Positions 3,704-52,230 of a stretch of DNA of 64,000 nt are shown in pieces. Every line of letters begins with the position of its first letter. The first letter of the stretch is position 1. The notes beneath the pieces were generated by a model, which did not search any database, was not told the origin of the DNA, and saw only the letters and a program-made list of their open reading frames with translations. Source of the stretch: Nemertoderma westbladi (lineage: Eukaryota > Animalia > Xenacoelomorpha). Both the position numbers and the translations under genes were made by a program. The stretch spans positions 385 through 64,384 of the forward strand of contig JAUCBJ010001497.1 in NCBI GenBank assembly GCA_032718475.1. The letters run 5' to 3'.

Positions 3704-4348
3704 TGTACTTCCCAGCGTTTAAAACGCTGATAATTAAAGTCTATATCTGAAAGAAGAATAATCTATTGCAAGACCAGATGTTTATTATAATTTTCTTAGG
3801 CGATTTGACAATGGTTTACATGATAACGAATGATAATTTAAATAATTTAAACTTTGTGGCAGCCCAACGTTGGTATACAGTATAACTCAACATAGGATTC
3901 AATGGTGGGGTTAGTCATGCTACGTCTAATAAGAGCACAAACAGCCACAGATTATTTAGGGATTGAGCTAGGACCAAACTGGCCCACTTTATTTTCTTGA
4001 AAGGGTAATTTATGTTTTGGACCCCGTTCGCATCTTTATATTTCATTCTATCATGCTATTGTATGGCAAAAATAATACAAATGTACTGTATATTGTATTA
4101 TTGTTCCTATTGTATTGTATATTTCATTTGCTGTAGTACAATCTATTCATCTCGCGTCCCTATCTGATTGATTTGTGTCAAATTAAATTGCCTTTGGCAA
4201 CATTATTTGATACAAATCGATTGATTAAACAATTAATTAATTGTTTAATCGACCAATTAATTAATTGTTTAATTAATTAATGACCTACTTAACACCCAAG
4301 GTGTGAAGTTGGTCTAACTGTCGCCGAGGATGGCAAACCATTACTACT
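3704..4348 (-). mobile_element. Putative 5' LTR of the Gypsy element
   Basis: Lies directly upstream of gag/PBS, ends ...GTACA before TGGCG and interrupts a CR1-like RT ORF at 4348. 3748-4348 recurs inverted at 51247-52230. It starts AGT rather than TG, so boundaries are uncertain. Confidence 0.6.
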
Positions 4349-4919
4349 TGTAAGTATAGTGAAATTGGTAGAATGTTCAACTTTATTAGTCTTTCTTTAT
4401 ATCTGTTTTCATCATTTCCTAAAATCCATATTGAAGATCTGCGCTGAATGGATTCTACTCGATGGGCATCTGTCTTGTTAGCAAACCAGCAGGGTGATCC
4501 ATAACATATAACAGGCAAAACCATGGACTTATTTATATTATATTTATATTTTATTTATATTTTATTCTAAGTTTAGTTTAGATTGGATTGGTAATTGAGC
4601 TGAACAGTTTCTTTTGATGAGGAAGAGTGTACGATTTGCTTTGCTGCATTTGTCATTGATGTGAGCCGTCCATGCAGGACATTGCTTTCGCCGTGAGGAC
4701 CAGCCAGTGCATAATCTTGTACTTTGGCAGCCTCATGGAGTGAATAAGCATGGTGGACAGCCCATGACTTTCTTGAGACGCATCTTAAAGGACACTGGCC
4801 TTAAAGATGCGGATGATCTAGCAAATGTCATGGGTGATAGGGAGTTGTGGCGGTGCAATTTTGTTGACAAGCCGGCACAGCATTCTTAAAAATGCAGCTG
4901 CAATGCAGCATGCCGATCC

Positions 4920-4955
<36 letters not shown>

Positions 4956-6406: not shown

Positions 6407-6852
6407 AAACTTAGTTCCAATCGCACATTTTCAAATGCGAACTTAGTTCCAATTGAAACGAATTTAGTTCCAAAATAAATTTTACAAAGCGAATTTAGTT
6501 CCAATCGAGGCGAACTTAGTTCCAATCCCAGAATATAAAAACGAACTTAGTTCCAATGGATGCGAATTTAGTTCCAATGCATGCGAATTTAGTTCCAATG
6601 CATGCGAATTTAGTTCCAATGCATGCGAATTTAGTTCCAATGAAAGCGAATTTAGTTCCAATGCATGCGAATTTAGTTCCAATGCATGCGAATTTAGTTC
6701 CAATGCATGCGAATTTAGTTCCAATGAAAGCGAATTTAGTTCCAATGCAAGCGAATTTAGTTCCAATGGAAGCGAATTTAGTTCCAATGGGTACGAACTT
6801 AGTTCCAATGTTTCAATCATGGGGTTAGCCACGTAGTAGGCGAAGCCTATTG
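6407..6852 (-). repeat. 21-bp satellite (reverse orientation) with a unique terminal segment ending in a hairpin
   Basis: Unit GCGAATTTAGTTCCAATGCAT. The flank 6811-6845 is the reverse complement of 8465-8500. Hairpin TAGTAGGC-GAA-GCCTATTG at 6834-6852. Confidence 0.85.
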
Positions 6853-6885
6853 CGTATTGCCACTATTTGGGGTGGGTCAGGGTCA

Positions 6886-8053
6886 GGCATCTGGCTGTTA
6901 TCTTTGTTGACTTCTTCAAGGCCTTTGATTCAGTCTCTCGCTCACGTATGTTCAGCATACTTTCATTATATGGGATTCCTGATGAAATTATTGCAGCAAT
7001 AAGATCAGTATACGATGGTTCGACAACATTTGTGTCTACTGTTGACGGTGACACAGAACCATTTGAAGTGTTATGGGGCGTCCTCCAAGGAGACACACTT
7101 GCACCATTCTTGTTCATTATTGTGGTTGACTATGTTCTACGCATGTCCTTAGATCATCATAATGATGATGGGGTGATGATAACTCCACCTACTGGCTCCA
7201 GAAGTCGAGGAAATCCTGCCAAGTACCTAACTGATCTAGACTTTGCTGATGACTTAGGAGTACTCTCGGAATCACTAGAGGGAGCCCAACGGCTCCTCAG
7301 CTCATTAGAACATGCTGCTTCTAGTGTTGGTCTTTTTATTAACTCCAGAAAGACCACAATTTTGACAGTTAACTTTGAAAGTCCTCAGCAAGTCTCTGAT
7401 CGGATGAGCATAAGCTCAAAGGATGGTATGCTTGAGCATGTGGACGACTTCTGTTACCTGGGATCATGGATCCGGAAGTCAGGTGAGGATACGTAAGGGA
7501 AAGGCATGGGCAGCCTTGAATAGGCTTTCCAGGATTTGGAAGTCACCGAGAATTAATCGGAAACTTAAGGTCCGATTATTTAGAGCAGCAGTAGTTCCAG
7601 TACTCCTCTACGGGAGTCCATGCTGGGCTCTAACTGCTGAGGACACCAAATCTCTGGATGGCACATTCACAAGAATGCTACGCCGGGTTCATTGTGTCAA
7701 GTACAATGCACACATCTCCAACCAGACACTATATAACATTGGAGGTGTCTCATTGGTTCCCCCAAGCTTGACACTAGAACAAAATCGCCTCCGCTTTGCA
7801 GGACATTGCTTTCGCCGTGAGGACCAGCCAGTGCATAATCTTGTACTTTGGCAGCCTCATGGAGTGAATAAGCATGGTGGACAGCCCATGACTTTCTTGA
7901 GACGCATCTTAAAGGACACTGGCCTTGAAGATGCGGATGATCTAGCAAATGTCATGGGCGATAGGGAGTTGTGGCGGTGCAATTTTGTTGACAAGCCGGC
8001 ACAGCATTCTTAAAAATGCAGCTGCAATGCAGCATGCCGATCCTAGTAGTAGT
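6886..8053 (+). mobile_element. 5'-truncated RTE-clade LINE (RT C-terminal half), frameshifted
   Basis: FVDFFKAFDSV, GVLQGDTLAPFLF, LDFADD and LLYGSPCW motifs; (TAG)n tail; probable TSD AGGGTCA at 6879-6885 and 8054-8060; 8-bp deletion near 7488 relative to the 27-kb copy. Confidence 0.92.
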
Positions 8054-8613
8054 AGGGTCAACAATAATTGCAATAAATTGTAAAATCCTTCCGTCATATT
8101 TAAAAAACGAAGTATTATTAATGAATTAAATGTATAATTACACATTTTGAAATATATATTAATCACGAGTATACTGATACTGACTGACTGAGTCTGTAGT
8201 ATTATATACTCAAGTCATGCACATTGTGCCATTTTCACAGCAAATACAATATTTACCAGTTGTTTGGGTTAGGAGGTTGGGCGTTGTTTTTTACAATGAA
8301 TATGATTTTAAATGATTAAATATAAATGAATTTAATTGAATTGTTTGGGTTAAGGGGTTGGGCGTAGTTTGGGGTAAGATTGTTTTGGTTAGGAGGTTGG
8401 GCGTTTTGGGTTAGTTATTTACAATTATTATTTAATCATCCACCTAATAGTGTCCTTAAACATTCTTCGCCAACTACGTGGCTCGCCCCACACCTGAAAC
8501 ATTGGAACTAAATTCGCTTCCATTGGAACTAAATTCGCTTGCATTGGAACTAAATTCGCATCAATTGGAACTAAATTCGCATCCATTGGAACTAAATTCG
8601 CTTGCATTGGAAC

Positions 8614-8750
8614 TAATTATAAATGAATTGTTGTGGGGTGGGTGACGGCGAATAAATATATATGTTATAGTACATTATGATAATGCTCTCCATAGCGAAA
8701 AATATCAACCGCCCCTATTGGGGCTCGAACCCGGTACCTAGGTTTCAAAC
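8614..8750 (-). mobile_element. Inverted partial copy of the 370-bp hammerhead repeat unit
   Basis: Reverse complement reads GTTTGAAACCTAGGTACCGGGTTCGAGCCCC...CATTTATAATTA, matching the unit from the ribozyme GAAA onward. Confidence 0.9.
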
Positions 8751-8975
8751 GGTTTATTCGCCGTCACCCACCCCACAACAATTCATTTATAATTAATTAA
8801 CACGTATGGCCGGCATACGGGGTTACAGTGGTTTCTACAACACTGTATAATAGTTATTCTTTGAGGCATGGTTGCCATTTCTGGCAGAGCACGGGAATAA
8901 CGTTGTACTTTACTATGAGTGACGTAAAAAGGCCTAAAAATGATACCCCACTCCATAGCGAATAAATCTTCTACC

Positions 8976-9081
8976 GCCCTGGTAGCTCAGTGGTCTTAGG
9001 ACACACACTCGGCTGATGATAACCGGAAGTTTGAAACCTAGGTACCGGGTTCGAGCCCCAATAGGGGCGGTTGATATTTTT
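8976..9081 (+). promoter_or_regulatory. tRNA-like Pol III type-2 cassette (A box, B box, T-run terminator); repeated at 9346, 9716, 10086 and 10456
   Basis: GCCCTGG-TAGCTCAGTGG (A box) ... GGTTCGAGCCC (B box) ... AGGGGCG, followed by GTTGATATTTTTT. D, T and acceptor stems are imperfect and there is no canonical 7-nt anticodon loop. Confidence 0.7.
9007..9050 (+). ncRNA. Type I hammerhead ribozyme, copy 1
   Basis: ACUCGG (stem I) - CUGAUGA - UAAC/CGGAA/GUUU (stem II) - GAAA - CCUAGG (palindromic stem III) - UA, then predicted cleavage after 9044 - CCGGGU (stem I'). Confidence 0.82.
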
Positions 9082-9376
9082 CGCTATGGAGAGCATTATC
9101 ATAATGTACTATAACATATATATTTATTCGCCGTCACCCACCCCACAACAATTCATTTATAATTAATTAACACGCATGGCCGGCATACGGGGTTACAGTG
9201 GTTTCTACAACACTGTATAATAGTTATTCTTTGAGGCATGGTTGCCATTTCTGGCAGAGCACGGGAATAACGTTGTACTTTACTATGAGTGACGTAAAAA
9301 GGCCTAAAAATGATACCCCACTCCATAGCGAATAAATCTTCTACCGCCCTGGTAGCTCAGTGGTCTTAGGACACAC

Positions 9377-9420
9377 ACTCGGCTGATGATAACCGGAAGT
9401 TTGAAACCTAGGTACCGGGT
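9377..9420 (+). ncRNA. Type I hammerhead ribozyme, copy 2
   Basis: Identical to copy 1. Confidence 0.82.
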
Positions 9421-9746
9421 TCGAGCCCCAATAGGGGCGGTTGATATTTTTCGCTATGGAGAGCATTATCATAATGTACTATAACATATATATTTATTCG
9501 CCGTCACCCACCCCACAACAATTCATTTATAATTAATTAACACGCATGGCCGGCATACGGGGTTACAGTGGTTTCTACAACACTGTATAATAGTTATTCT
9601 TTGAGGCATGGTTGCCATTTCTGGCAGAGCACGGGAATAACGTTGTACTTTACTATGAGTGACGTAAAAAGGCCTAAAAATGATACCCCACTCCATAGCG
9701 AATAAATCTTCTACCGCCCTGGTAGCTCAGTGGTCTTAGGACACAC

Positions 9747-9790
9747 ACTCGGCTGATGATAACCGGAAGTTTGAAACCTAGGTACCGGGT
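9747..9790 (+). ncRNA. Type I hammerhead ribozyme, copy 3
   Basis: Identical to copy 1. Confidence 0.82.
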
Positions 9791-10116
9791 TCGAGCCCCA
9801 ATAGGGGCGGTTGATATTTTTCGCTATGGAGAGCATTATCATAATGTACTATAACATATATATTTATTCGCCGTCACCCACCCCACAACAATTCATTTAT
9901 AATTAATTAACACGCATGGCCGGCATACGGGGTTACAGTGGTTTCTACAACACTGTATAATAGTTATTCTTTGAGGCATGGTTGCCATTTCTGGCAGAGC
10001 ACGGGAATAACGTTGTACTTTACTATGAGTGACGTAAAAAGGCCTAAAAATGATACCCCACTCCATAGCGAATAAATCTTCTACCGCCCTGGTAGCTCAG
10101 TGGTCTTAGGACACAC

Positions 10117-10160
10117 ACTCGGCTGATGATAACCGGAAGTTTGAAACCTAGGTACCGGGT
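10117..10160 (+). ncRNA. Type I hammerhead ribozyme, copy 4
   Basis: Identical to copy 1. Confidence 0.82.
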
Positions 10161-10486
10161 TCGAGCCCCAATAGGGGCGGTTGATATTTTTCGCTATGGA
10201 GAGCATTATCATAATGTACTATAACATATATATTTATTCGCCGTCACCCACCCCACAACAATTCATTTATAATTAATTAACACGCATGGCCGGCATACGG
10301 GGTTACAGTGGTTTCTACAACACTGTATAATAGTTATTCTTTGAGGCATGGTTGTCATTTCTGGCAGAGCACGGGAATAACGATGTACTTTACTATGAGT
10401 GACGTAAAAAGGCCTAAAAATGATACCCCACTCCACAGCGAATAAATCTTCTACCGCCCTGGTAGCTCAGTGGTCTTAGGACACAC

Positions 10487-10531
10487 ACTCGGCTGATGAT
10501 AACCGGAAGTTTGAAAACCTAGGTACCGGGT
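10487..10531 (+). ncRNA. Type I hammerhead ribozyme, copy 5 (GAAAA variant)
   Basis: As copy 1 but with an extra A in the GAAA core (mutation or homopolymer error). Confidence 0.7.
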
Positions 10532-11390
10532 TCGAGCCCCAATAGGGGCGGTTGATATTTTTCGCTATGGAGAGCATTATCATAATGTACTATAACATAT
10601 ATATGCATTGGAACTAAGTTCGCATCCATTGGAACTAAATTTGCATCAATTGGAACTAAATTCGCATGCATTGGAACTAAATTCGTTTTAGTTTTTCTCT
10701 AATTATTGGAACCAAGTTCAAATTGGAACTAAATTCGCCAAAATTGGAACTAAATTCGTTTCCATTGGAAATAAATTCGCTTGCATTGGAACTAAGTTCG
10801 CATCCATTGGAACTAAATTCGCTTCCATTGGAACTAAATTCGCTTCCATTGGAACTAAATTCGCTTGCATTGGAACTAAGTTCGCATCCATTGGAACTAA
10901 ATTCGCATCCATTGGAACTAAATTCGCTTGCATTGGAACTAAGTTCGCATCCATTGGAACTAAATTCGCATCAATTGGAACTAAATTCGCATCCATTGGA
11001 ACTAAATTCGCATCAATTGGAACTAAATTCGCATGCATTGGAACTAAATTCGTTTTCGTTTTTCTCTAATTATTGGAACAAAGTTCAAATTGGAACTAAA
11101 TTCGCCAAAATTGGAACTAAATTCGTTTCCATTGGAACTAAATTCGCTTGCATTGGAACTAAGTTCGCATCCATTGGAACTAAATTTGCTTCCATTGGAA
11201 CTAAATTCGCTTCCATTGGAACTAAATTCGCTTGCATTGGAACTAAGTTCGCATCCATTGGAACTAAATTCGCATCCATTGGAACTAAATTCGCTTGCAT
11301 TGGAACTAAGTTCGCATCCATTGGAACTAAATTCGCATCTGTACTATCTGATACTGGCGTACCACTGACTGACATACCAGCTACCTGCAA

Positions 11391-12095
11391 ATGGCTGACA
11401 ATTTTGATAATGTTAAAGATGATATATTGTCGTTATTCGCAGTAATAAAAACAAAGAAATATGTAACCTGTGACCAAGAGACCCAGCTGAGTGAACTATT
11501 AAGCGCTTTGACCTCGCTACACTCGAGGTCTCGAGATGATTTCACCGCAACTCTGGCAAATCTCGCCGAATCACGGAAAGAAACGGCGGATGCGCGAAAA
11601 GAAACTGTGGCCGCAAAGGACGAGCTCTTGAAGTTCCTGCAACTCGGCCCATCTACCATGGCTACTCCAGGACCCGGACCCGGCAGGTCAACATACAGTG
11701 CAGTCGTGCAAAGAAACCCGGTTCCAGATCCACACTCACCGCCGTCGAATAACGGACCATACGCCACGGATACGGACCGCAACTTCCGTCGCCCCGCCCC
11801 GGCGATACAAGGTTGCAGAGCTGGTGGTCCACTTCGTGTTGCCAAAGGAAACCCAGTCCAAGCCGTCGGGAAGGCGCATGTTCATATCGGCCGACTAGAC
11901 CCATCGACAAAAAGCAAGGAAGTTGCTGACTTTCTTCAATCCCAAGGAATCCCTTTCGACGACGTAACTCCACTACCGCTTAAAGATGGTAACTCACCTT
12001 ATCTAAGTTTCCATATCACATGCGATCAACAACATCGCGACACCCTAATGGACCCTGGATTGTGGGAAACGGGTCTCACAATCCGGAACTACTGA
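11391..12095 (+). CDS. LINE ORF1 protein (coiled coil plus C-terminal RRM-like domain)
   Basis: 234 aa. C-terminus HIGRLDPST...SFHITC...LMDPGLWETGLTIRNY is typical of LINE ORF1. The frame stays open after the TGA until a TAG at 12204. Confidence 0.8.
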   Translation: MADNFDNVKDDILSLFAVIKTKKYVTCDQETQLSELLSALTSLHSRSRDDFTATLANLAESRKETADARKETVAAKDELLKFLQLGPSTMATPGPGPGRSTYSAVVQRNPVPDPHSPPSNNGPYATDTDRNFRRPAPAIQGCRAGGPLRVAKGNPVQAVGKAHVHIGRLDPSTKSKEVADFLQSQGIPFDDVTPLPLKDGNSPYLSFHITCDQQHRDTLMDPGLWETGLTIRNY

Positions 12096-12206
12096 CTCAC
12101 GAACGCCGAACGCGAGGCACTCAGTCTACGTCGGCGCCCCGAACGCGAATTCGCTGGTGGAACCTCCAGCAGCTCACAGCAATACTCAACAAATACCGGT
12201 AACTAG

Positions 12207-15007
12207 GACAGGAGCACGGAGGTACAACTACTTCTATGGAATGTGGAAGGTCTCCGCTATTTAGTAGACAATTTATCTGAATCTGAATTATATGGTAAGG
12301 CCAATGTCGTGTTATTTACTGAAACTATGTACACGGACAAAGCATTTTATTCTAACTCGTATTACTCTTTTACTCACCCTGCGACAAAGTTAAACAGACG
12401 GCGCCCTATTGGCGGCCTTATGACTCTGTGCAGGCCGCACCTCAACCCTTCCTGTGTGAAACAAACAAATAAATACATTGTTATCAAAACCTTGGTATCC
12501 TTCTTTATTGTTTTCTATTTTACCCCCGAAACCCCACTGGATGAAATACTTATGGAAATAACTGAAGCACTGTCTTATACCAAAAACACAACCCCTATTG
12601 TTATAGCGGGAGATTTTAATTGCAGACTAGACCACGGATCTCGTGGTTCCGATTTAGTTGACGATCTGACCAACATCGGGTTTAGCTGTCTCAGCTCCCC
12701 GGATATCCCGACGTACATATCACCGCAAGGTGAAAGTGTAATCGATTTAATATTCGTGAGTTACCCAGCAATTGTTCCTACGTTGCTACCGCCTACAATA
12801 ATCTTGTCAAATCCCATAAGGAAACACCAGCCGGTGACCGTTAAGTTTGTTTTCCCTGCCGATATTCATGATTCAAAATTACCGAACCCCATTCCTCGTC
12901 TGTCGAGGCAGATCGATCGTAACGCATTTATATCGCACCACAATATTCCAATGGTTAGGCTACTTCTATCTAACAACGAAATAGATGCAGCTACAGACCT
13001 ACTGACTCTATCAATTGCAGACTCCACACCATCCACTCGCAAACCCCGCTATGGAAAACCGTGGTATGACTCGGAGTGCAAGACTCTAAAGAAACAGTTA
13101 ATTCACTGTATGTCTCGTCGTAATCTCTCGGCAATGGACTGCTCGCAGTTTTGGAATATCCGCAAAAGCTACAAGTCGCTCCTCAAACGGAAACGAGTTG
13201 CCTACGAGGAAGCTACACTGGCAGAATTGGTCAGCGACTCCGAAGTTAAACCATGGTTAATCACCAAGGATCACAAACGGACTATTGCACCAATAGACTC
13301 AGATACACTCGAGACACATTTCCGCAACCTTCTTGGTGTTAGAGTAGATCCCCCCAATGTTCTACCAGTTCCAATCCCTTCGTTGGATGAACTTGAGGGG
13401 GAGGAATGGTACAATGCGCCGATTACGGAAGAGGAAATATCCGCCAGTATAAACGACTCCAAGAATAACAAAGCTTCGGGTGTAGATGGAATATTCTACG
13501 ATCATCTCAAGTTAACCAAACCATTTATAATAACAATTCTCTGTCTATTATACAATGCCTGTCTCGATATCGGTAAACTACCGCAAATCTGGAAACAGTG
13601 TATAATAATGATCATCTATAAAGAAAGGGGCATTCTCAAACCCAGATAATTATCGCGGCATTGCACTCATCTCCGTGTTACTGAAAACTCTCACTTCAAT
13701 CGTAAACAAACGCGTCCGATGCTTTACGTCTCACCGGATACCTAGGGAACAATACGGTTTCATGCCAAACAGATCTACATTACAGGCACTAAACGCACTT
13801 ATATCCGATATCAATTTGGCTTTGCAATCCAATCTGTCATCACAACGGAAAATGTATGTCGCTTTTGTTGACTTTAGAAAGGCATTCGACTTTGTCAACA
13901 GAGCTGTTTTATTAAATAAGATATATGGATTCGGGATTAAAGGAAAATTATTTGTTCTGATAAAAGATTTACTCCAAAATTACATTCAGGTGTACGACGG
14001 CCTTTGTCTATCGAACCTAATCGAGCAACTCCGCGGAATTCTGCAGGGCGACTGCTTCTCTCCTCCATGTTTTAATTTCTTTATCGCCGACCTAGCTATA
14101 GCACTACGACAAGGATGTGCGATTCTAAAGTTTCTATTTTTTGCTGACGATCTCGCTTTCTACTCTTCCGATAGGAATGAAATACAACGCGGCCTAGACA
14201 TTCTCCTCGACTGGTGTACTCGTAACGGAATGGAAGTCAACCTCGACAAAACTAAAATTTTAAAATTCCGCAAAGGGGGTCGTCTCGCTACTACCGACAC
14301 TTTTAGCTACAATGGAAATAGCGTCACCATCTGTAACAATTACGAATACCTAGGACTCACGCTTCAGCCATCACTTTGTTTCTCGCAGCACATTAAAAAA
14401 GAAGAAGAAAAAAGTTTATGCAACAATAGGGTCTATAAAGAATCTCAAGCTATTGTCCGTTGACGCAGGTTTAAAACTATTTAAATTAAAAATTGCACCA
14501 ATGGCTTTGTATGCTCTACCCGTCTACTCTCGCTTTCTAACGATATCAAATTTAAAAGATCTAGACAGAATAAAATCGACATACATAAAGCGACTTCTAG
14601 GGCTACATATAAGTGCTTCGTCCACAATGGTGCTACACCTCGTAAACGAAAATTCGCTTATTGACGACATACTTCTAAAAGCTCCAAATCTATTCGCCCG
14701 CGACCTGATTGATCAATATAATGCATTTCGAACAAATCGCGAACTCAATTTCGTTACTGAGAATTATTTACTCGGTCCTGCGTTCAATTCATTTACCTGG
14801 CGACTATCCAATCAGAAGAACTGTCATGTGGTCACGAGAGCCACGTGTCACGGGTTTCACCACAAAATATGCACGAACTCACAGCCTTTCCACACACTAT
14901 CAACCGATTGTATTTGCCGATTTTGCCTTCTTCCCTGCCCAGACCGTTACCACGCCTTCTCTTGCGCCCAATGCCCCACAATGGCTGATCTCGCAACAAA
15001 ACTCTAA
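12207..15007 (+). pseudogene. LINE ORF2 (APE endonuclease, RT, Cys/His-rich C-terminus) with two frameshifts
   Basis: LLWNVEG, AGDFN, IDLIF, KHQPV (APE); QYGFMPNRST, FVDFRKAFD, GILQGD, FADD (RT); GFHHKIC...CICRFC...YH..C. Frameshifts near 13620 and 14400 fall in A-rich runs. Confidence 0.9.
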
Positions 15008-15840
15008 CATGCTAGCCCGCTCAGGCCACACCATAAGTAGTATATTGTCCCACTCGTGCTCCTAAGTAATCAATTAATACCAATGGTGATGGGTAATAAT
15101 TGCAATTCAATTATATTAATGTGCTAATAAATATATAATTAATATAATTGGTTACCTCGTTGGAGGTGTAAAGTGAAAAAAAAAATAAAAAAATAAAATT
15201 CGCATCAATTGGAACTAAATTCGTTTTCGTTTTTCTCTAATTATTGGAACCAAGTTCAAATTGGAACTAAATTCGCCAAAATTGGAACTAAATTCGCTTG
15301 CATTGGAACTAAATTCGCTTCCATTGGAACTAAATTCGCTTGCATTGGAACTAAGTTCGCATCCATTGGAACTAAATTCGTTTCCATTGGAACTAAATTC
15401 GCTTGCATTGGAACTAAGTTCGCATTCATTGGAACTAAATTCGCATCCATTGGAACTAAATTCGCTTGCATTGGAACTAAGTTCGCATCCATTGGAACTA
15501 AATTCGCATCAATTGGAACTAAATTCGCATCCATTGGAACTAAATTCGCATCAATTGGAACTAAATTCGCATGCATTGGAACTAAATTCGTTTTCGTTTT
15601 TCTCTAATTATTGGAACAAAGTTCAAATTGGAACTAAATTCGCCAAAATTGGAACTAAATTCGTTTCCATTGGAACTAAATTCGTTTTCATTGGAACTAA
15701 ATTCGCATGAGGCTTAAGTTGGAACTAAGTACGGGGAATCTTACAACATTGGTATATACAGTAGAAAGTGGAGCTTACTCAGAAGGTTTTACAACTTCCT
15801 AGAAATTATTTTTCATATATTTATATATTTACTTAAACCA

Positions 15841-26933: not shown

Positions 26934-28173
26934 GGACCATGGAACCCATTTTGGCACGAAGAAGGATAATTGAAGAATTATCAAAAAAGAAAGACAGGCA
27001 TCTGGCTGTTATCTTTGTTGACTTCTTCAAGGCCTTTGATTCAGTCTCTCGCTCACGTATGTTCAGCATACTTTAATTATATGGGATTCCTGATGAAATT
27101 ATTGCAGCAATCAGATCAGTATACGATGGTTCGACAACATTTGTGTCTACTGTTGACGGTGACACAGAACCATTTGAAGTGTTATGGGGCGTCCTCCAAG
27201 GAGACACATTTGCACCATTCGTGTTCATTATTGTGGTTGACTATGTTCTACGCATGTCCTTAGGTCATCATAATGATGATGGGGTGATAATAACTCCACC
27301 TACTGGCTCCAGAAGTCGAGGAAATCCTGCCAAGTACCTAACTGATCTAGACTTTGCTGATGACTTAGGAGTACTCTCAGAATCACTAGAGGGAGCCCAA
27401 CGGCTCCTCAGCTCATTAGAACATGCTGCTTCTAGTGTTGGTCTTTTTATTAACTCCAGAAAGACCAAAATTTTGACAGTTAACTTTGAAAGTCCTCAGC
27501 AAGTCTCTGATCGGATGAGCATAAGCTCAAAGGATGGTATGCTTGAGCATGTGGACGACTTCTGTAACTTGGGATCATGGATCCGGAAGTCAGGTGAGGA
27601 CCTTCGAATACGTAAGGGAAAGGCATGGGCTGCCTTGAATAGGCTTTCCAGGATTTGGAAGTCACCGAGAATTAATCGGAAACTTAAGGTCCGATTATTT
27701 AGAGCAGCAGAAGTTCCAGTACTCCTCTACGGGAGTCCATGCTGGGCTCTAACTGCTGAGGACACCAAATCTCTGGATGGCACATTCACAAGAATGCTAC
27801 GCCGGGTTCATTGTGTCAAGTACAATGCACACATCTCCAACCAGACACTATATAACATTGGAGGTGTCTCATTGGTTCCCCCAAGCTTGACACTAGAACA
27901 AAATCGCCTCCGCTTTGCAGGACATTGCTTTCGCCGTGAGGACCAGCCAGTGCATAATCTTGTACTTTGGCAGCCTCATGGAGTGAATAAGCATGGTGGA
28001 CAGCCCATGACTTTCTTGAGACGCATCTTAAAGGACACTGGCCTTGAAGATGCGGATGATCTATCAAATGTCATGGGTGATAGGGAGTTGTGGCGGTGCA
28101 ATTTTGTTGACAAGCCGGCACAGCATTCTTAAAAATGCAGCTGCAATGCAGCATGCCGATCCTAGTAGTAGTA
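26934..28173 (+). mobile_element. 5'-truncated RTE-clade LINE copy
   Basis: RT ORF 27143-28132; (TAG)n tail; 11-bp TSD GAGAACTGACT at 26923-26933 and 28174-28184. Confidence 0.93.
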
Positions 28174-28439
28174 GAGAACTGACTCGGTTCGGATTCGGTT
28201 AGGGTCTAATAATCTATATGAAATATAGAACTTTTAGCACTGAACGATGCCCTCTGCCGCACTAAGTGCTTTTTAATGGATTTTTAATATGTTATAACGT
28301 GTCACTGTGGTCTGTTTTTAATAATTAATAATATATCAATTTATTTGATTAAAAGCAATGAAATGAAATGAAATATAATAAAGAAAGAAAGTTTGCACTA
28401 ATGATGTAAGACCTACGTCAATATATTTATCAGCCTGTG

Positions 28440-46886: not shown

Positions 46887-48149
46887 TCAAATCGAACTGA
46901 TACCATATTCATCCTCCATCATCTTCATATATGCCGCTACAGCTGCCTTGCGGTACACACCCATAGCCATACTAGAGTCTTTGTGCTTAGCTGTCAGTTC
47001 CATTAACATTCGATCAATTCTATTTTCATCATCACACAAATATATAAAACACTTTACTTTATTCGCGTTTGTTTTAATTGAATTTTTATCTAAGCAGTCG
47101 GAATTTATTCGCTTTTTAGTTTCTCTAAATACTTTTAATTCTCTCTCCATTCTCTCAAAACCAAATATTTCTATTTTATCCCAAAGTGTTTTATTGAAGT
47201 GTTTGTAAAGTTTCCAATCTCCGATATTTATATTTCTGAGTTTTTCTGTATCAAAAATATCCAGTTTTTGATTTTGCACACCTTTACTCCTATAAACGAC
47301 GTCTTCAAATTCCCAACACATTAAATCTTTCAACAAAATCATCGATTCGTCAAAATATTCCAATAAAATCACCAAATCAAATTCCTCATCAATCTCTTTT
47401 ATAATATCATCATAATCACTATCATTGGGTGAATTTACATTATAGCCGAATTCGTATAACAAAGGATTTAAAAACGACCTATAATTGAGCATAGTGCCAT
47501 TTGGATTACTAATGAAATATTCATAAATATCTTTTGTAGTATTGAGTGCTAACTCATTTGCGTCACGAAAATTTGAATATGGAGCATAATAAGTCATGTA
47601 GGATTTGATGACATTTGAAGGGTCACGAATTCCAACAATATACATGGTATCTGGTGGCATCAACTTTTTTACATCAATGTTAAATTTTCCGTGTAGAAAT
47701 GAAACATTAGGATGTTGTGTGAACTGGTTTAAATGTTCGCCCCACCAGTAACTCCATTGCCGACCTCTACATTTCGCAAATGATTCTTCATCGGACAGAG
47801 CGGGTGTTAGATTGTGATTAATAGCGTGATTAATAATCACAGAAACTGTGGTACGGGACCCAGTTCGGTGGGTCTTCAAGTAAAAAACATTCATTTTCGT
47901 TTTGCAACTTCCATTCAATTGTGTCACATTTGTTTCATTCTCTTCCACAAAGTTTTGAGCCGTAGTATACATTTGCATTCCTACTGAACTATAAGATATA
48001 TTGTTGTCCAATTGTTTCACATACTTGTACACAAGTATAAGCATTGCTATAAGTATAAGCATAAAAGTGGATAAAGTTAATTTTCGAAAAGTCACATTAT
48101 TGAGGTACATGTTTCGTTCCATACACATAAATTCGAGCAATGGAATCAA
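46887..48149 (-). CDS. Galactose-3-O-sulfotransferase (Gal3ST/CST family), type II membrane protein, single coding exon
   Basis: 420 aa. N-terminal TM segment; FYLKTHRTGSRT (5'-PSB), IRDP (3'-PB), FDLVILLEYFDESMILLKDLMCW and DWKLYKHFNKTLW family motifs. Confidence 0.92.
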   Translation of the reverse strand: MIPLLEFMCMERNMYLNNVTFRKLTLSTFMLILIAMLILVYKYVKQLDNNISYSSVGMQMYTTAQNFVEENETNVTQLNGSCKTKMNVFYLKTHRTGSRTTVSVIINHAINHNLTPALSDEESFAKCRGRQWSYWWGEHLNQFTQHPNVSFLHGKFNIDVKKLMPPDTMYIVGIRDPSNVIKSYMTYYAPYSNFRDANELALNTTKDIYEYFISNPNGTMLNYRSFLNPLLYEFGYNVNSPNDSDYDDIIKEIDEEFDLVILLEYFDESMILLKDLMCWEFEDVVYRSKGVQNQKLDIFDTEKLRNINIGDWKLYKHFNKTLWDKIEIFGFERMERELKVFRETKKRINSDCLDKNSIKTNANKVKCFIYLCDDENRIDRMLMELTAKHKDSSMAMGVYRKAAVAAYMKMMEDEYGISSI

Positions 48150-50439: not shown

Positions 50440-51044
50440 TACTACTACTATAATCGACCTGCTGCATTGAGCTGCTATACTGGCTTAACAAAAACGTTTC
50501 GTCACCACCATGGGATCCACAATTCACCACCACAACTCCCTATCCCCCATGACAATTGTGAGATTATCCGCATCTTCAAGGCCAGTGTCCTTTAAGATGC
50601 GTCTCACGAAAGTCACAGGCTGTCCACCATGCTTATTCACTCCATGAGGCTGCCAAAGTACAAGATTATGCACTGGCTGGTCCTCACGGCGAAAGCAATG
50701 TCCTGCAAAGCGGAGGCGATTTTGTTCTAGTGTCAAGCTTGGGGGAACCAATGAGACACCTCCAATGTTATATAGTGTCTGGTTGGAGATGTGTGCATTG
50801 TACTTGACACAATGAACCCGACGTAGCATTCTTGTGAATGTGCCATCCAGAGATTTGGTGTCCTCAGCAGTTAGAGCCCAGCTTGGACTCCCATAGAGGA
50901 GTACTGGAACTACTGCTGCTCTAAATAATCGGACCTTAAGTTTCCGATTAATTCTCGGTGACTTCCAAATCCTGGAAAGCCTATTCAAGGCTACCCATGC
51001 GTTTCGCTTATGTATTCGAAGGTCCTCACCTGACTTCTGGATCA
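50440..51044 (-). mobile_element. 5'-truncated, more diverged RTE copy
   Basis: ORF 50524-51072 matches the RTE C-terminus (RLRFAGHCFRR); (CTA)n tail at ~50440. Confidence 0.88.
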
Positions 51045-51246: not shown

Positions 51247-52230
51247 AGTAGTAATGGTTTGCCACTCTTGGCGACAATTGGACCAACTTCGCACCTTGGG
51301 TGTTAAGTAGGTCATTAATTAATTAAACAATTAATTAATTGGTCGATTAAACAATTAATTAATTGTTTAATCAATCGATTTGTATCAAATAATGTTGCCA
51401 AAGGCAATTTAATTTGATACAAATCAATCAGATAGGGACGCGAGATGAATAAATTGTACTACAGCAAATGAAATATACAATACAATAGGCACTGTACAAT
51501 ACAATATACAGTACATTTGTATTATTTTTGCCGTACAATAGAATGATAGAATGAAATATAAAGATGCGAGCGGGGCCCAAAACATAAATTACCCTTTCAA
51601 GAAAATAAAATGGACCAGTTTGGCCCTGGTTCAATCCCTCAATAATCTGCGGCCGTTTGGGCTCTTATTAGACGTAGCATGACTAACCCCACCAGTAGTA
51701 ATGGTTTGCCACTCTTGGCGACAATTGGACCAACTTCACATCTTGGGTGTTAAGTAGGTCATTAATTAATTAAACAATTAATTAATTGGTCGATTAAACA
51801 ATTAATTAATTGTTTAATCAATCGATTTGTATCAAATAATGTTGCCAAAGGCAATTTAATTTGATACAAATCAATCAGATAGGGACGCGAGATGAATAAA
51901 TTGTACTACAGCAAATGAAATATACAATACAATAGGCACTGCGCAATACAATATACAGTACATTTGTATTATTTTTGCCGTACAATAGAATGATAGAATG
52001 AAATATAAAGATGCGAGCGGGGCCCAAAACATAAATTACCCTTTCAAGAAAATAAAATGGACCAGTTTGGCCCTGGTTCAATCCCTCAATAATCTGCGGC
52101 CGTTTGGGCTCTTATTAGACGTAGCATGACTAACCCCACCATTGAATCCTATGTTGAGTTAAACCATTGTCAATTCGCCTAAGAAAATTATAATAAACAT
52201 CTGGTCTTGCAATAGATTATTCTTCTTTCA
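51247..52230 (+). mobile_element. Solo LTR-like copy of the 3748-4348 sequence with a 447-bp tandem duplication
   Basis: AGTAGTAATGGTTTGCCA starts at 51247 and 51694; the copy ends TTCTTCTTTCA at 52230. Confidence 0.75.

What the first reader, a model, noticed from the sequence alone, without database searches (positions are those of the whole stretch)
8753..10603. Tandem 370-bp retrozyme-like array: a hammerhead ribozyme with palindromic helix III in every unit
Seen: five complete, near-identical units, each with stem I (ACUCGG/CCGGGU), CUGAUGA, a short stem II, GAAA, the palindrome ACCUAGGU and a GUA cleavage triplet. Known: type I hammerheads with a short palindromic helix III occur in Penelope-like elements and in metazoan non-LTR retrozymes (schistosome SM-alpha, newt satellite 2, cricket pDo500), can cleave as dimers, and can release monomers that circularise. 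Inference: array transcripts self-process to 370-nt monomers or circles, and the array is a reverse-transcribed multimer. The first stem II pair is a non-canonical U-U, which may lower activity.
Basis: partly seen in the sequence, partly recalled or inferred. Interest (0 to 1): 0.9.

Follow-up and report, generated by a model that had tools for sequence, protein, structure and literature searches.

The report
Retrozyme with hammerhead nested in tRNA
This is a young five-copy insertion of an abundant non-coding jumping repeat in an animal genome, likely copied in by a Penelope-type enzyme, and its predicted self-cutting RNA sits inside what is likely a decayed tRNA, so that cutting would split the tRNA-type promoter and only re-joining the RNA ends would restore it.

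Summary
The array is real: five 370-bp units, each with a type I hammerhead motif (0 of 20,000 shuffles match).

(1) The insertion has the Penelope footprint: a back-to-front, 5'-truncated copy with a 46-nt tail in front of the array, all inside a 14-bp target-site duplication in a 21-bp satellite. Other genomic copies show the same inversions (10 of 13 listed joints).

(2) The hammerhead lies between an A box and a B box in a tRNA-like frame. Stems I and II occupy the anticodon arm, variable loop and T-stem positions.

Against activity of this copy: its hammerhead fold lies 6-10 kcal/mol above a competing anticodon-like fold. The commoner genomic letters (9379C with 9395A) are predicted to favour stem I. 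A run of five Ts just after the tRNA-like part would stop RNA polymerase III after about 105 nt.

No cleavage, circle, transcript or partner enzyme was shown. Verdict: a new variant of non-LTR retrozymes, close to schistosome Sm-alpha. The retrozyme part is known biology. The tRNA-nested ribozyme is the new part.

The parts
8603..8616 (+). Left copy of the 14-bp target-site duplication; its last 3 bases are shared with the end of the inverted tail
   Evidence: Identical to 10604-10617. The satellite's variant order supports duplication rather than deletion.
8611..8750 (-). Inverted, 5'-truncated copy: 94 nt of the unit's 3' end, starting in the 3' strand of hammerhead stem II (no CUGAUGA), plus the tail
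   Evidence: 140 nt, 99% complementary to 9029-9168 and equivalents
8611..8656 (-). 46-nt tail: extension past the element's main 3' end, present on the inverted arm only
   Evidence: Matches unit positions 1-46. Loose ends of other copies at 9166 and 8795.
8753..10603 (+). Five head-to-tail units (370, 370, 370, 370, 371 nt), head to head with the inverted copy and separated from it by 2 nt
8940..9102 (+). Long imperfect hairpin that carries the tRNA/hammerhead domain at its tip (repeated every 370 nt)
   Evidence: Predicted -61.5 kcal/mol, z = -5.0 against 100 shuffles, computed on 9310-9472; arms seen
8976..9069 (+). tRNA-like frame, unit 1 (others 9346-9439, 9716-9809, 10086-10179, 10456-10550): acceptor-like arms, A box, anticodon-arm-like part, T-arm-like part with B box
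8983..8993 (+). A-box-like motif (others start 9353, 9723, 10093, 10463)
   Evidence: The A+B box pattern (recalled consensus) hits only these 5 places in the window and 2 of 20,000 shuffles
9007..9050 (+). Type I hammerhead, unit 1; predicted cut after 9044
9048..9056 (+). B-box-like motif; overlaps the 3' strand of hammerhead stem I and begins 4 nt after the cut
   Evidence: Sequence
9077..9081 (+). Five-T run, 8 nt after the tRNA-like 3' end; the only run of 4 or more T on the + strand of the unit; possible polymerase III terminator
   Evidence: 9447-9451 in unit 2
9377..9420 (+). Type I hammerhead, unit 2; predicted cut after 9414
9747..9790 (+). Type I hammerhead, unit 3; predicted cut after 9784
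10117..10160 (+). Type I hammerhead, unit 4; predicted cut after 10154
10487..10531 (+). Hammerhead of unit 5, with one extra A in the GAAA run; likely impaired
10604..10617 (+). Right copy of the target-site duplication
8500..8616 (+). Target: 21-bp satellite, left part; it continues at 10606-11339

Best explanation
This is a young insertion of a high-copy, non-coding tandem element whose type I hammerhead motif lies inside a likely tRNA-derived frame, and which was likely inserted by a Penelope-like reverse transcriptase/endonuclease from an RNA that likely had its ends joined or was left uncut. Shown: five units, the inverted truncated copy with its tail, the 14-bp duplication, the A and B boxes flanking the hammerhead core, and many 5'-truncated and inverted relatives in the same organism. 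Inferred cycle: (a) a multimeric RNA is made through the array, either by polymerase III reading through the five-T run or by read-through from outside; (b) neighbouring hammerheads pair through the ACCUAGGU palindrome and cut after GUA, releasing 370-nt monomers with the B box at the 5' end and the A box near the 3' end; (c) a host RtcB-type ligase closes the monomer, which re-forms the A-B promoter across the junction; (d) a Penelope-like enzyme primes on both target strands from two start sites about 46 nt apart. One start gives the five-lap array and the other the short inverted copy with the tail. The copy in this window is predicted to be a weak cutter; the commoner genomic variant is predicted to be the better folder.
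For: Penelope footprint: inverted 140-nt arm, 14-bp duplication and 46-nt tail, matching the layouts in PMC8557442, PMC3846280 and the two-start-site model in PMC11167929. In contigs of 4 DNA runs (at most 3 samples), 10 of 13 listed joints are between opposite strands and copies end at 9473-9488 in AT-rich flanks. Copies run through the cut site with no listed break (summed depth 323k to 279k in X1 across 9410-9421), so the template was uncut or re-joined. Two cores co-fold into the swapped double hammerhead with an 8-bp stem III (-26 kcal/mol against -6.1 for one core). The frequent variants avoid the core: 9379 T>C (55-74% of depth) turns a U-G pair of stem I into C-G, 9395 G>A (47-64%) is in loop II, and the most recurrent core change is at the free N7 position (22/17/18/2 contigs). 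tRNA frame: A+B boxes in 2 of 20,000 shuffles; relaxed ARAGORN call over 9345-9440 against 4 of 500 shuffles; 18 middle positions match an isotype-blind panel of 114 viral tRNAs in register (best 13 of 18; top-10 mean 12.3, reached by 0 of 5,000 shuffles).
Against: No cleavage, transcript, circle or partner element was observed. In context the hammerhead fold of the window variant is 6.1-10.3 kcal/mol above the minimum, with stem I probability about 0, and an anticodon-like stem competes (P 0.5-0.7). Stem II has U-U instead of the conserved G10.1-C11.1 pair (PMC4209133). The five-T run would end polymerase III transcripts after about 105 nt. Default ARAGORN finds no tRNA, Rfam shows no tRNA hit, only 1 of 6,930 in-silico deletion variants passes ARAGORN's default threshold, and a profile of 41 non-Asn tRNAs hits only the T arm at E about 1. 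Linkage of the common variants is not shown. Eight of nine Xenopus retrozyme dimers did not cleave in vitro, and hammerhead cleavage was not needed for PAc insertion in vitro. No GIY-YIG hit among the 17 of 45 window ORFs scanned.
Confidence: 0.6

Rival explanations
1. Penelope-type insertion of one or two units from an uncut linear RNA, later expanded to five by slippage or unequal exchange. The hammerhead is a passenger and no circle is involved.
For: [quoted passage not shown]
Against: Family-wide frequent variants spare the core and improve stem I. Contigs from other runs continue past the tail into the next unit (X1 record 6, 9026-9219; X4 record 20, 9092-9207), so multimers are not peculiar to this locus.
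Confidence: 0.2
2. The unit is the end repeat (pLTR) of an autonomous Penelope-like element whose ORF lies elsewhere in the genome; this locus is an ORF-less by-product rather than a member of an independent retrozyme family.
For: Summed contig depth is about 5-10 times higher over the hammerhead-to-3'-end part than over the rest of the unit. Retrozymes are homologous to pLTRs in Xenopus.
Against: Steep 5' truncation gives the same depth pattern. Only about 1% of laid contigs in X1-X3 run on into unlike sequence. The hammerhead has the canonical 6-bp helix I of retrozymes rather than the minimal PLE form.
Confidence: 0.1
3. The tRNA resemblance is convergent or coincidental: a hammerhead picked up box-like motifs, and no tRNA was the ancestor.
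For: No Rfam tRNA hit and no default ARAGORN call. The non-Asn profile is not significant. The register was chosen by eye. T and D stems are broken (T stem 3 of 5 pairs).
Against: A box, B box, acceptor-like arms (6 of 7 pairs counting G-U) and the anticodon-arm middle all fall in tRNA order, and a five-T run follows where a tRNA gene terminator would be.
Confidence: 0.1

Closest known systems
Metazoan non-LTR retrozymes (Cervera and de la Pena 2020, PMC7229834: passages and parts 2-4 of 6 read, supplement unreadable; Li, Clavereau and Pollet 2026, bioRxiv 10.64898/2026.07.22.740005: parts 1-3 of 5 read)
   Same: Tandem non-coding units of 150-450 bp, under 50% GC, with a type I hammerhead in each unit and a target duplication longer than 4 bp. 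Axolotl HHR_Amex2 has the same 2-bp helix III with tetraloop and U-U at the base of helix II, and cleaves better as a dimer.
   Different: No tRNA-like A/B-box frame around the hammerhead is mentioned in the parts read. Circles and cleavage are shown there and not here.
Schistosoma Sm-alpha / Sj-alpha SINE-like hammerhead repeats (review PMC6765202 and PMC2770079, passages read; Ferbeyre 1998 not held, nothing seen)
   Same: tRNA-related polymerase III promoter plus hammerhead in tandem repeats; cleavage leaves promoter sequence at the wrong end of the monomer.
   Different: The review describes a promoter followed by a hammerhead. Here the hammerhead lies between the boxes and its cut splits them. 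Sm-alpha is linked to tRNA-Gln; this frame is closest to Asn/Met/Ile-type anticodon arms (unresolved). I could not check the original Sm-alpha layout.
Insertion units of endonuclease-bearing Penelope-like elements (Adineta Pen2a, PMC3846280; Naiad/Chlamys, PMC8557442; Anolis PAc, PMC11167929; passages read)
   Same: Partial tandem plus inverted 5'-truncated copy at the 5' end, a one-sided tail, a short target duplication, and a hammerhead with palindromic helix III near the 3' end.
   Different: No ORF here; tail 46 nt against 30-40; duplication 11-14 bp against 8-10 bp in the Adineta examples; partner element not identified.
TRIMp3 elements Cassandra, Helenus, Ajax (PMC10886601, passages read)
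   Same: A small-RNA-derived polymerase III promoter inside a repeat of a non-autonomous retroelement that can form tandem arrays.
   Different: Those are LTR-type elements with primer-binding sites and no ribozyme; this one has Penelope-type ends and a hammerhead.

Membership tests
Non-LTR retrozymes | Tandem units of about 150-450 bp, GC under 50% | tested here: met
   5 x 370 bp; GC 0.40-0.43 in the 2-kb bins that hold the array
Non-LTR retrozymes | Type I hammerhead in at least two consecutive units | tested here: met
   5 of 5 units match the descriptor; unit 5 has an extra A
Non-LTR retrozymes | Non-coding | tested here: met
   No ORF of 120 aa or more within the array
Non-LTR retrozymes | No LTR, primer-binding site or polypurine tract | not tested
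   No LTR layout is visible; PBS and PPT were not searched
Non-LTR retrozymes | Target-site duplication longer than 4 bp | tested here: met
   14 bp (11-14 allowing for shared letters)
Non-LTR retrozymes | Self-cleavage, and expression as linear and circular monomers | not testable with these tools
   Needs in vitro cleavage and RNA data; folding predicts weak activity for this variant
Canonical type I hammerhead | Conserved core CUGANGA, GAAA, NUH; 6-bp helix I; 1-2 bp helix III with palindromic loop | tested here: met
Canonical type I hammerhead | 4-bp helix II starting with G10.1-C11.1 | tested here: not met
   U-U plus 3 pairs; predicted pairing probability 0.05 or less. A precedent exists in HHR_Amex2.
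Canonical type I hammerhead | Loop 1-loop 2 tertiary contacts; Rfam gathering score | tested here: inconclusive
   HH9 19.7 bits against a gathering score of 52; contacts not modelled
Penelope-mobilised elements | Inverted 5'-truncated copy, one-sided tail, short target duplication | tested here: met
   10 of 13 listed joints in other copies are inversions
Penelope-mobilised elements | Autonomous RT + GIY-YIG partner sharing the 3' end | not testable with these tools
   No whole genome is held; no GIY-YIG hit in 17 of 45 window ORFs
Sm-alpha-like SINE-type hammerhead repeats | tRNA-related A and B boxes plus hammerhead in a tandem unit | tested here: met
Sm-alpha-like SINE-type hammerhead repeats | Promoter lies before the hammerhead | tested here: not met
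   The core and cut site lie between the boxes; the known layout is taken from a review legend only
Sm-alpha-like SINE-type hammerhead repeats | Multimeric polymerase III transcripts | not testable with these tools
   The five-T run 8 nt after the tRNA-like end argues for early termination
Classical tRNA-derived SINEs | tRNA head at the 5' end, LINE-type 3' tail | tested here: not met
   The tRNA-like part ends about 50 nt from the element's 3' end; the ends are Penelope-like

The most novel reading that the evidence does not exclude
A hammerhead ribozyme arose inside a captured tRNA gene. The anticodon stem and loop, variable loop and T stem were re-paired into stems I and II and the CUGA turn, with about 3 nt added in the loop and 12 nt (GAAA, palindrome, cut site) added before the T stem. 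The result is a two-state RNA (anticodon-like fold or ribozyme fold) whose cut splits its own polymerase III promoter, so only circularised or multimeric copies stay transcribable. The family is caught evolving from the tRNA fold toward the ribozyme fold. The roughly 105-nt polymerase III product may also act in trans as the second half of the dimeric hammerhead.
Probability: 0.35. Interest if true: 0.8.

Novelty: new variant of a known kind. Interest (0 to 1): 0.55.

Why it matters
Where animal retrozymes come from, what transcribes them and what inserts them are open questions in the papers read. This locus shows the full Penelope insertion footprint on a retrozyme array, which supports the proposed Penelope partner from insertion anatomy rather than from co-occurrence. 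If the nested design is right, it is a natural example of a catalytic RNA built out of a tRNA. It would also couple circularisation to promoter integrity. Both natural variants (window and common) are short and can be compared directly in a cleavage assay.

Tried and rejected
Whole-genome search: no genome is held for this window, so copy number, linked haplotypes, true covariation and a partner element could not be examined.

RNA: no RNA holder listed. X5, only guessed to be RNA, gave 7 contigs that do not cover the hammerhead. This is no evidence either way.

Relatives elsewhere: the A box-core-B box pattern gave 2 viral and 55 metagenome loci; 0 of 57 pass the hammerhead descriptor or align to the unit beyond 17 nt. 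The family-specific core pattern gave 0 viral hits. blastn against phages gave no match. These collections are mostly microbial.

tRNA-Asn as ancestor: all 38 viral loci from my first pattern were tRNA-Asn, and a profile of 28 of them aligns end to end at E=1e-4. That pattern was shaped by my recollection of tRNA-Asn, so this result is circular. On an isotype-blind panel, Met(CAT)-labelled tRNAs scored best and Asn ranked third or fourth by mean. The isotype is left open.

Intact tRNA plus an insertion: rejected (1 of 6,930 deletion variants passes default ARAGORN).

The MIR946 hit at 8618-8790 is the inverted repeat, far below its gathering score.

Insertions ending at the ribozyme cut: only 2 of the 10 inversion joints have an end within 1 nt of the cut (9414, 9416). 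This is a weak hint and was not used.

Deletion instead of duplication at the target: disfavoured by the satellite's variant order.

Literature: nine searches found no paper describing a hammerhead between A and B boxes. The library lacks most subscription papers, Ferbeyre 1998 was not held, and the supplement of PMC7229834 and those of the 2026 preprint could not be seen and may bear on novelty. Passages of PMC5680766, PMC3531059 and PMC8490949 added nothing.
Full report
Setting. The window is repeat-rich eukaryotic DNA with many satellites, LINE fragments and one sulfotransferase ORF. It reads as an animal genome (inference). No whole genome is held.

Observation. The array spans 8753-10604 with period 370 and 5.0 copies. 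Units 2-4 are identical, unit 1 has one difference and unit 5 is 98.9% identical. My type I descriptor hits only these five places in 64 kb and 0 of 20,000 shuffles of the unit. Rfam is weaker: nothing at gathering threshold, no hammerhead in a 1.2-kb search, and Hammerhead_HH9 at E=0.0083, 19.7 bits against a gathering score of 52, in a 141-nt search. Unit 5 carries an extra A in the GAAA run.

Insertion anatomy. Directly upstream, 8611-8750 is a 140-nt inverted copy. It holds 94 nt of the unit's 3' end and a 46-nt extension into the next unit. The whole structure sits in a 21-bp satellite, between identical 14-mers at 8603-8616 and 10604-10617. Because the target is a satellite I tested duplication against deletion. 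The left-flank 18-mer is followed by the G-variant unit in 9 of its 12 other occurrences, and the right-flank 23-mer is preceded by the left-flank letters in 8 of its 8 other occurrences. The empty site is therefore best read as having one copy of the 14-mer. Tandem plus inverted truncated copy plus one-sided tail plus short duplication is the described Penelope layout (PMC8557442; PMC3846280; passages). PMC11167929 (passages) explains the tail by two reverse-transcription start sites and cleavage and extension of both target strands.

The family. Six listed runs hold the stretch or part of it, five of them of one coded organism. Laying contigs on 9320-9490 gave 1288, 835, 670 and 74 contigs in X1-X4; X1 and X2 are one sample and X1 may be the source of the assembly. 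Summed depth reaches about 340,000 in X1 against about 6-33 for the single long pieces listed. That is not a copy number, but it indicates a high-copy family. Depth is highest over the 3' part. Loose ends cluster at 9473-9488 with AT-rich flanks (24 of 421 shown), and a second set of ends lies at the tail end (9166, 8795, 24 of 683 shown). Ten of 13 listed joints are between opposite strands. Copies run through the cut site, so the template was uncut or re-joined RNA. Among the 20 variant rows listed, the frequent ones are 9379 T>C (55-74% of depth; U-G to C-G in stem I), 9395 G>A (47-64%; loop II) and 9437 G>C (57-61%). Within the core, the free N7 position varies in the most contigs (22/17/18/2), and C3 and A6 in 6 or fewer contigs per run and change. 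This fits selection on the ribozyme but is single-site evidence, not covariation.

The tRNA-like frame. In each unit an A-box-like motif (9353) and a B-box-like motif (9418) flank the hammerhead core. This pair (recalled consensus) occurs only at these five places in the window and in 2 of 20,000 shuffles. ARAGORN finds nothing by default but calls a tRNA over 9345-9440 at 90% of threshold with introns allowed, against 4 of 500 shuffles, and nothing at 95%. In tRNA register the acceptor arms pair at 6 of 7 positions counting G-U, the T stem at 3 of 5 and an anticodon-like stem at 4 of 5. The best match is 13 of 18 (19 of 5,000 shuffles reach it), the top-10 mean is 12.3 (0 of 5,000) and the mean is 7.9 (11 of 5,000). 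The register was chosen by eye and these counts are not corrected for that. So the 5' strand of stem I maps to the anticodon stem, CUG to the start of the anticodon loop, stem II to the rest of the anticodon arm and the variable loop, and the 3' strand of stem I to the T stem. The weak U-U stem II is what such an origin would leave. Against this: no Rfam tRNA hit, a non-Asn profile that finds only the T arm at E about 1, and a cloverleaf that is not restored by removing the insertions (1 of 6,930). The isotype is open: the Asn result is circular, and the blind panel prefers Met-labelled tRNAs. No host tRNAs were available.

Folding. The domain sits at the tip of a long hairpin (9310-9472, z = -5.0); the cut-to-cut monomer has z = -2.3. 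For the window letters the hammerhead fold costs 3.1 kcal/mol in isolation and 6.1-10.3 in context, with stem I probability about 0 in context. The anticodon-like stem competes at P 0.5-0.7. Of the 12 combinations of common letters, only those with both 9379C and 9395A give stem I (P 0.90-0.93 in the two longer contexts; 0.03-0.55 in the 106-nt context). Linkage of these letters is suggested by similar frequencies but not shown. Two isolated cores co-fold into the double hammerhead with the 8-bp palindromic stem III, as described for short-helix-III hammerheads (PMC4209133). The only run of four or more Ts lies 8 nt after the tRNA-like end. By established knowledge this terminates polymerase III, so a 370-nt unit needs read-through or another polymerase. 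This is unexplained.

Mechanism. Best reading (0.6): a retrozyme cycle of multimer, dimeric cleavage, ligation and Penelope-type insertion. The cut falls between the boxes, so a linear monomer has the B box first and the A box last, and only a circle or multimer yields DNA copies with a usable promoter. The anatomy and family pattern are shown; transcription, cleavage, ligation and the partner are inferred from PMC7229834 and the 2026 preprint. That preprint also reports that 8 of 9 predicted dimers did not cleave. Rivals: DNA-level expansion with a passenger ribozyme (0.2), pLTR by-product (0.1), coincidental tRNA likeness (0.1).

Comparison and novelty. It meets the testable features of non-LTR retrozymes and works like one; its hammerhead departs from the canonical form at helix II, as axolotl HHR_Amex2 does. 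The tRNA promoter plus hammerhead pairing is known from Sm-alpha, described there as a promoter followed by a ribozyme. I found no description of the nested layout in nine searches, with the limits listed under Tried and rejected. Unchecked notes from this scan report tRNA-headed Penelope-type repeats and Penelope-inserted retrozymes in other genomes, with the hammerhead behind the tRNA part or absent. They lower the novelty of 'tRNA plus Penelope' and are not support. No look-alike of this sequence and no nested case was returned. Verdict: new variant of a known kind, interest 0.55; 0.8 if the ribozyme really was built from the tRNA (probability 0.35).

Noticed in passing
L040, L060, L063, L071, L075, L088, L089, L090 (around the pattern match): tRNA-like genes in microbial or viral contigs with short extra sequence in the anticodon-loop region containing CTGATGA; judged by eye. 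They fail the hammerhead descriptor and may be short tRNA introns.
   Followed up: no
window 6840-8060, 26995-28174, 50518-51043, 4673-4931: Near-identical (95-99%) 5'-truncated copies of one LINE-type RT element, at least two ending in TAG repeats; a young family.
   Followed up: partly
window 51247-52140 and 3904-4348: A 447-bp head-to-tail dimer (99%) with a third, inverted copy at 94%; no hammerhead or A+B box by my patterns. Nature unknown.
   Followed up: partly
window 6542-6810, 8500-8616, 10606-11339, 15260-15708: A 21-bp satellite on both strands with a conserved order of unit variants. Besides the retrozyme, a broken LINE (about 11373-15007, endonuclease and RT domains) lies between two of its arrays.
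   Followed up: partly
window 46887-48149 (-): Uninterrupted 420-aa ORF matching galactose-3-O-sulfotransferase, PF06990, E=3.6e-53; the only clear host-type gene among the ORFs scanned.
   Followed up: no
window 9371 equivalent, in runs X1-X4: Many contigs diverge upstream of 9371 but their consensus still shows an A-box-like motif, which suggests subfamilies with a different 5' part.
   Followed up: no
window 8611-8750 versus the array: A transcript crossing the inverted arm and the array would form up to 140 bp of double-stranded RNA over stem III, the cut site and the B box, which could block the ribozyme or trigger silencing (inference).
   Followed up: no
window 8753 and 10603: The array is exactly five laps: its 5' end falls on the base after its own 3' end. 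Other loci in the runs start at varied positions, so this may be chance; unexplained.
   Followed up: partly
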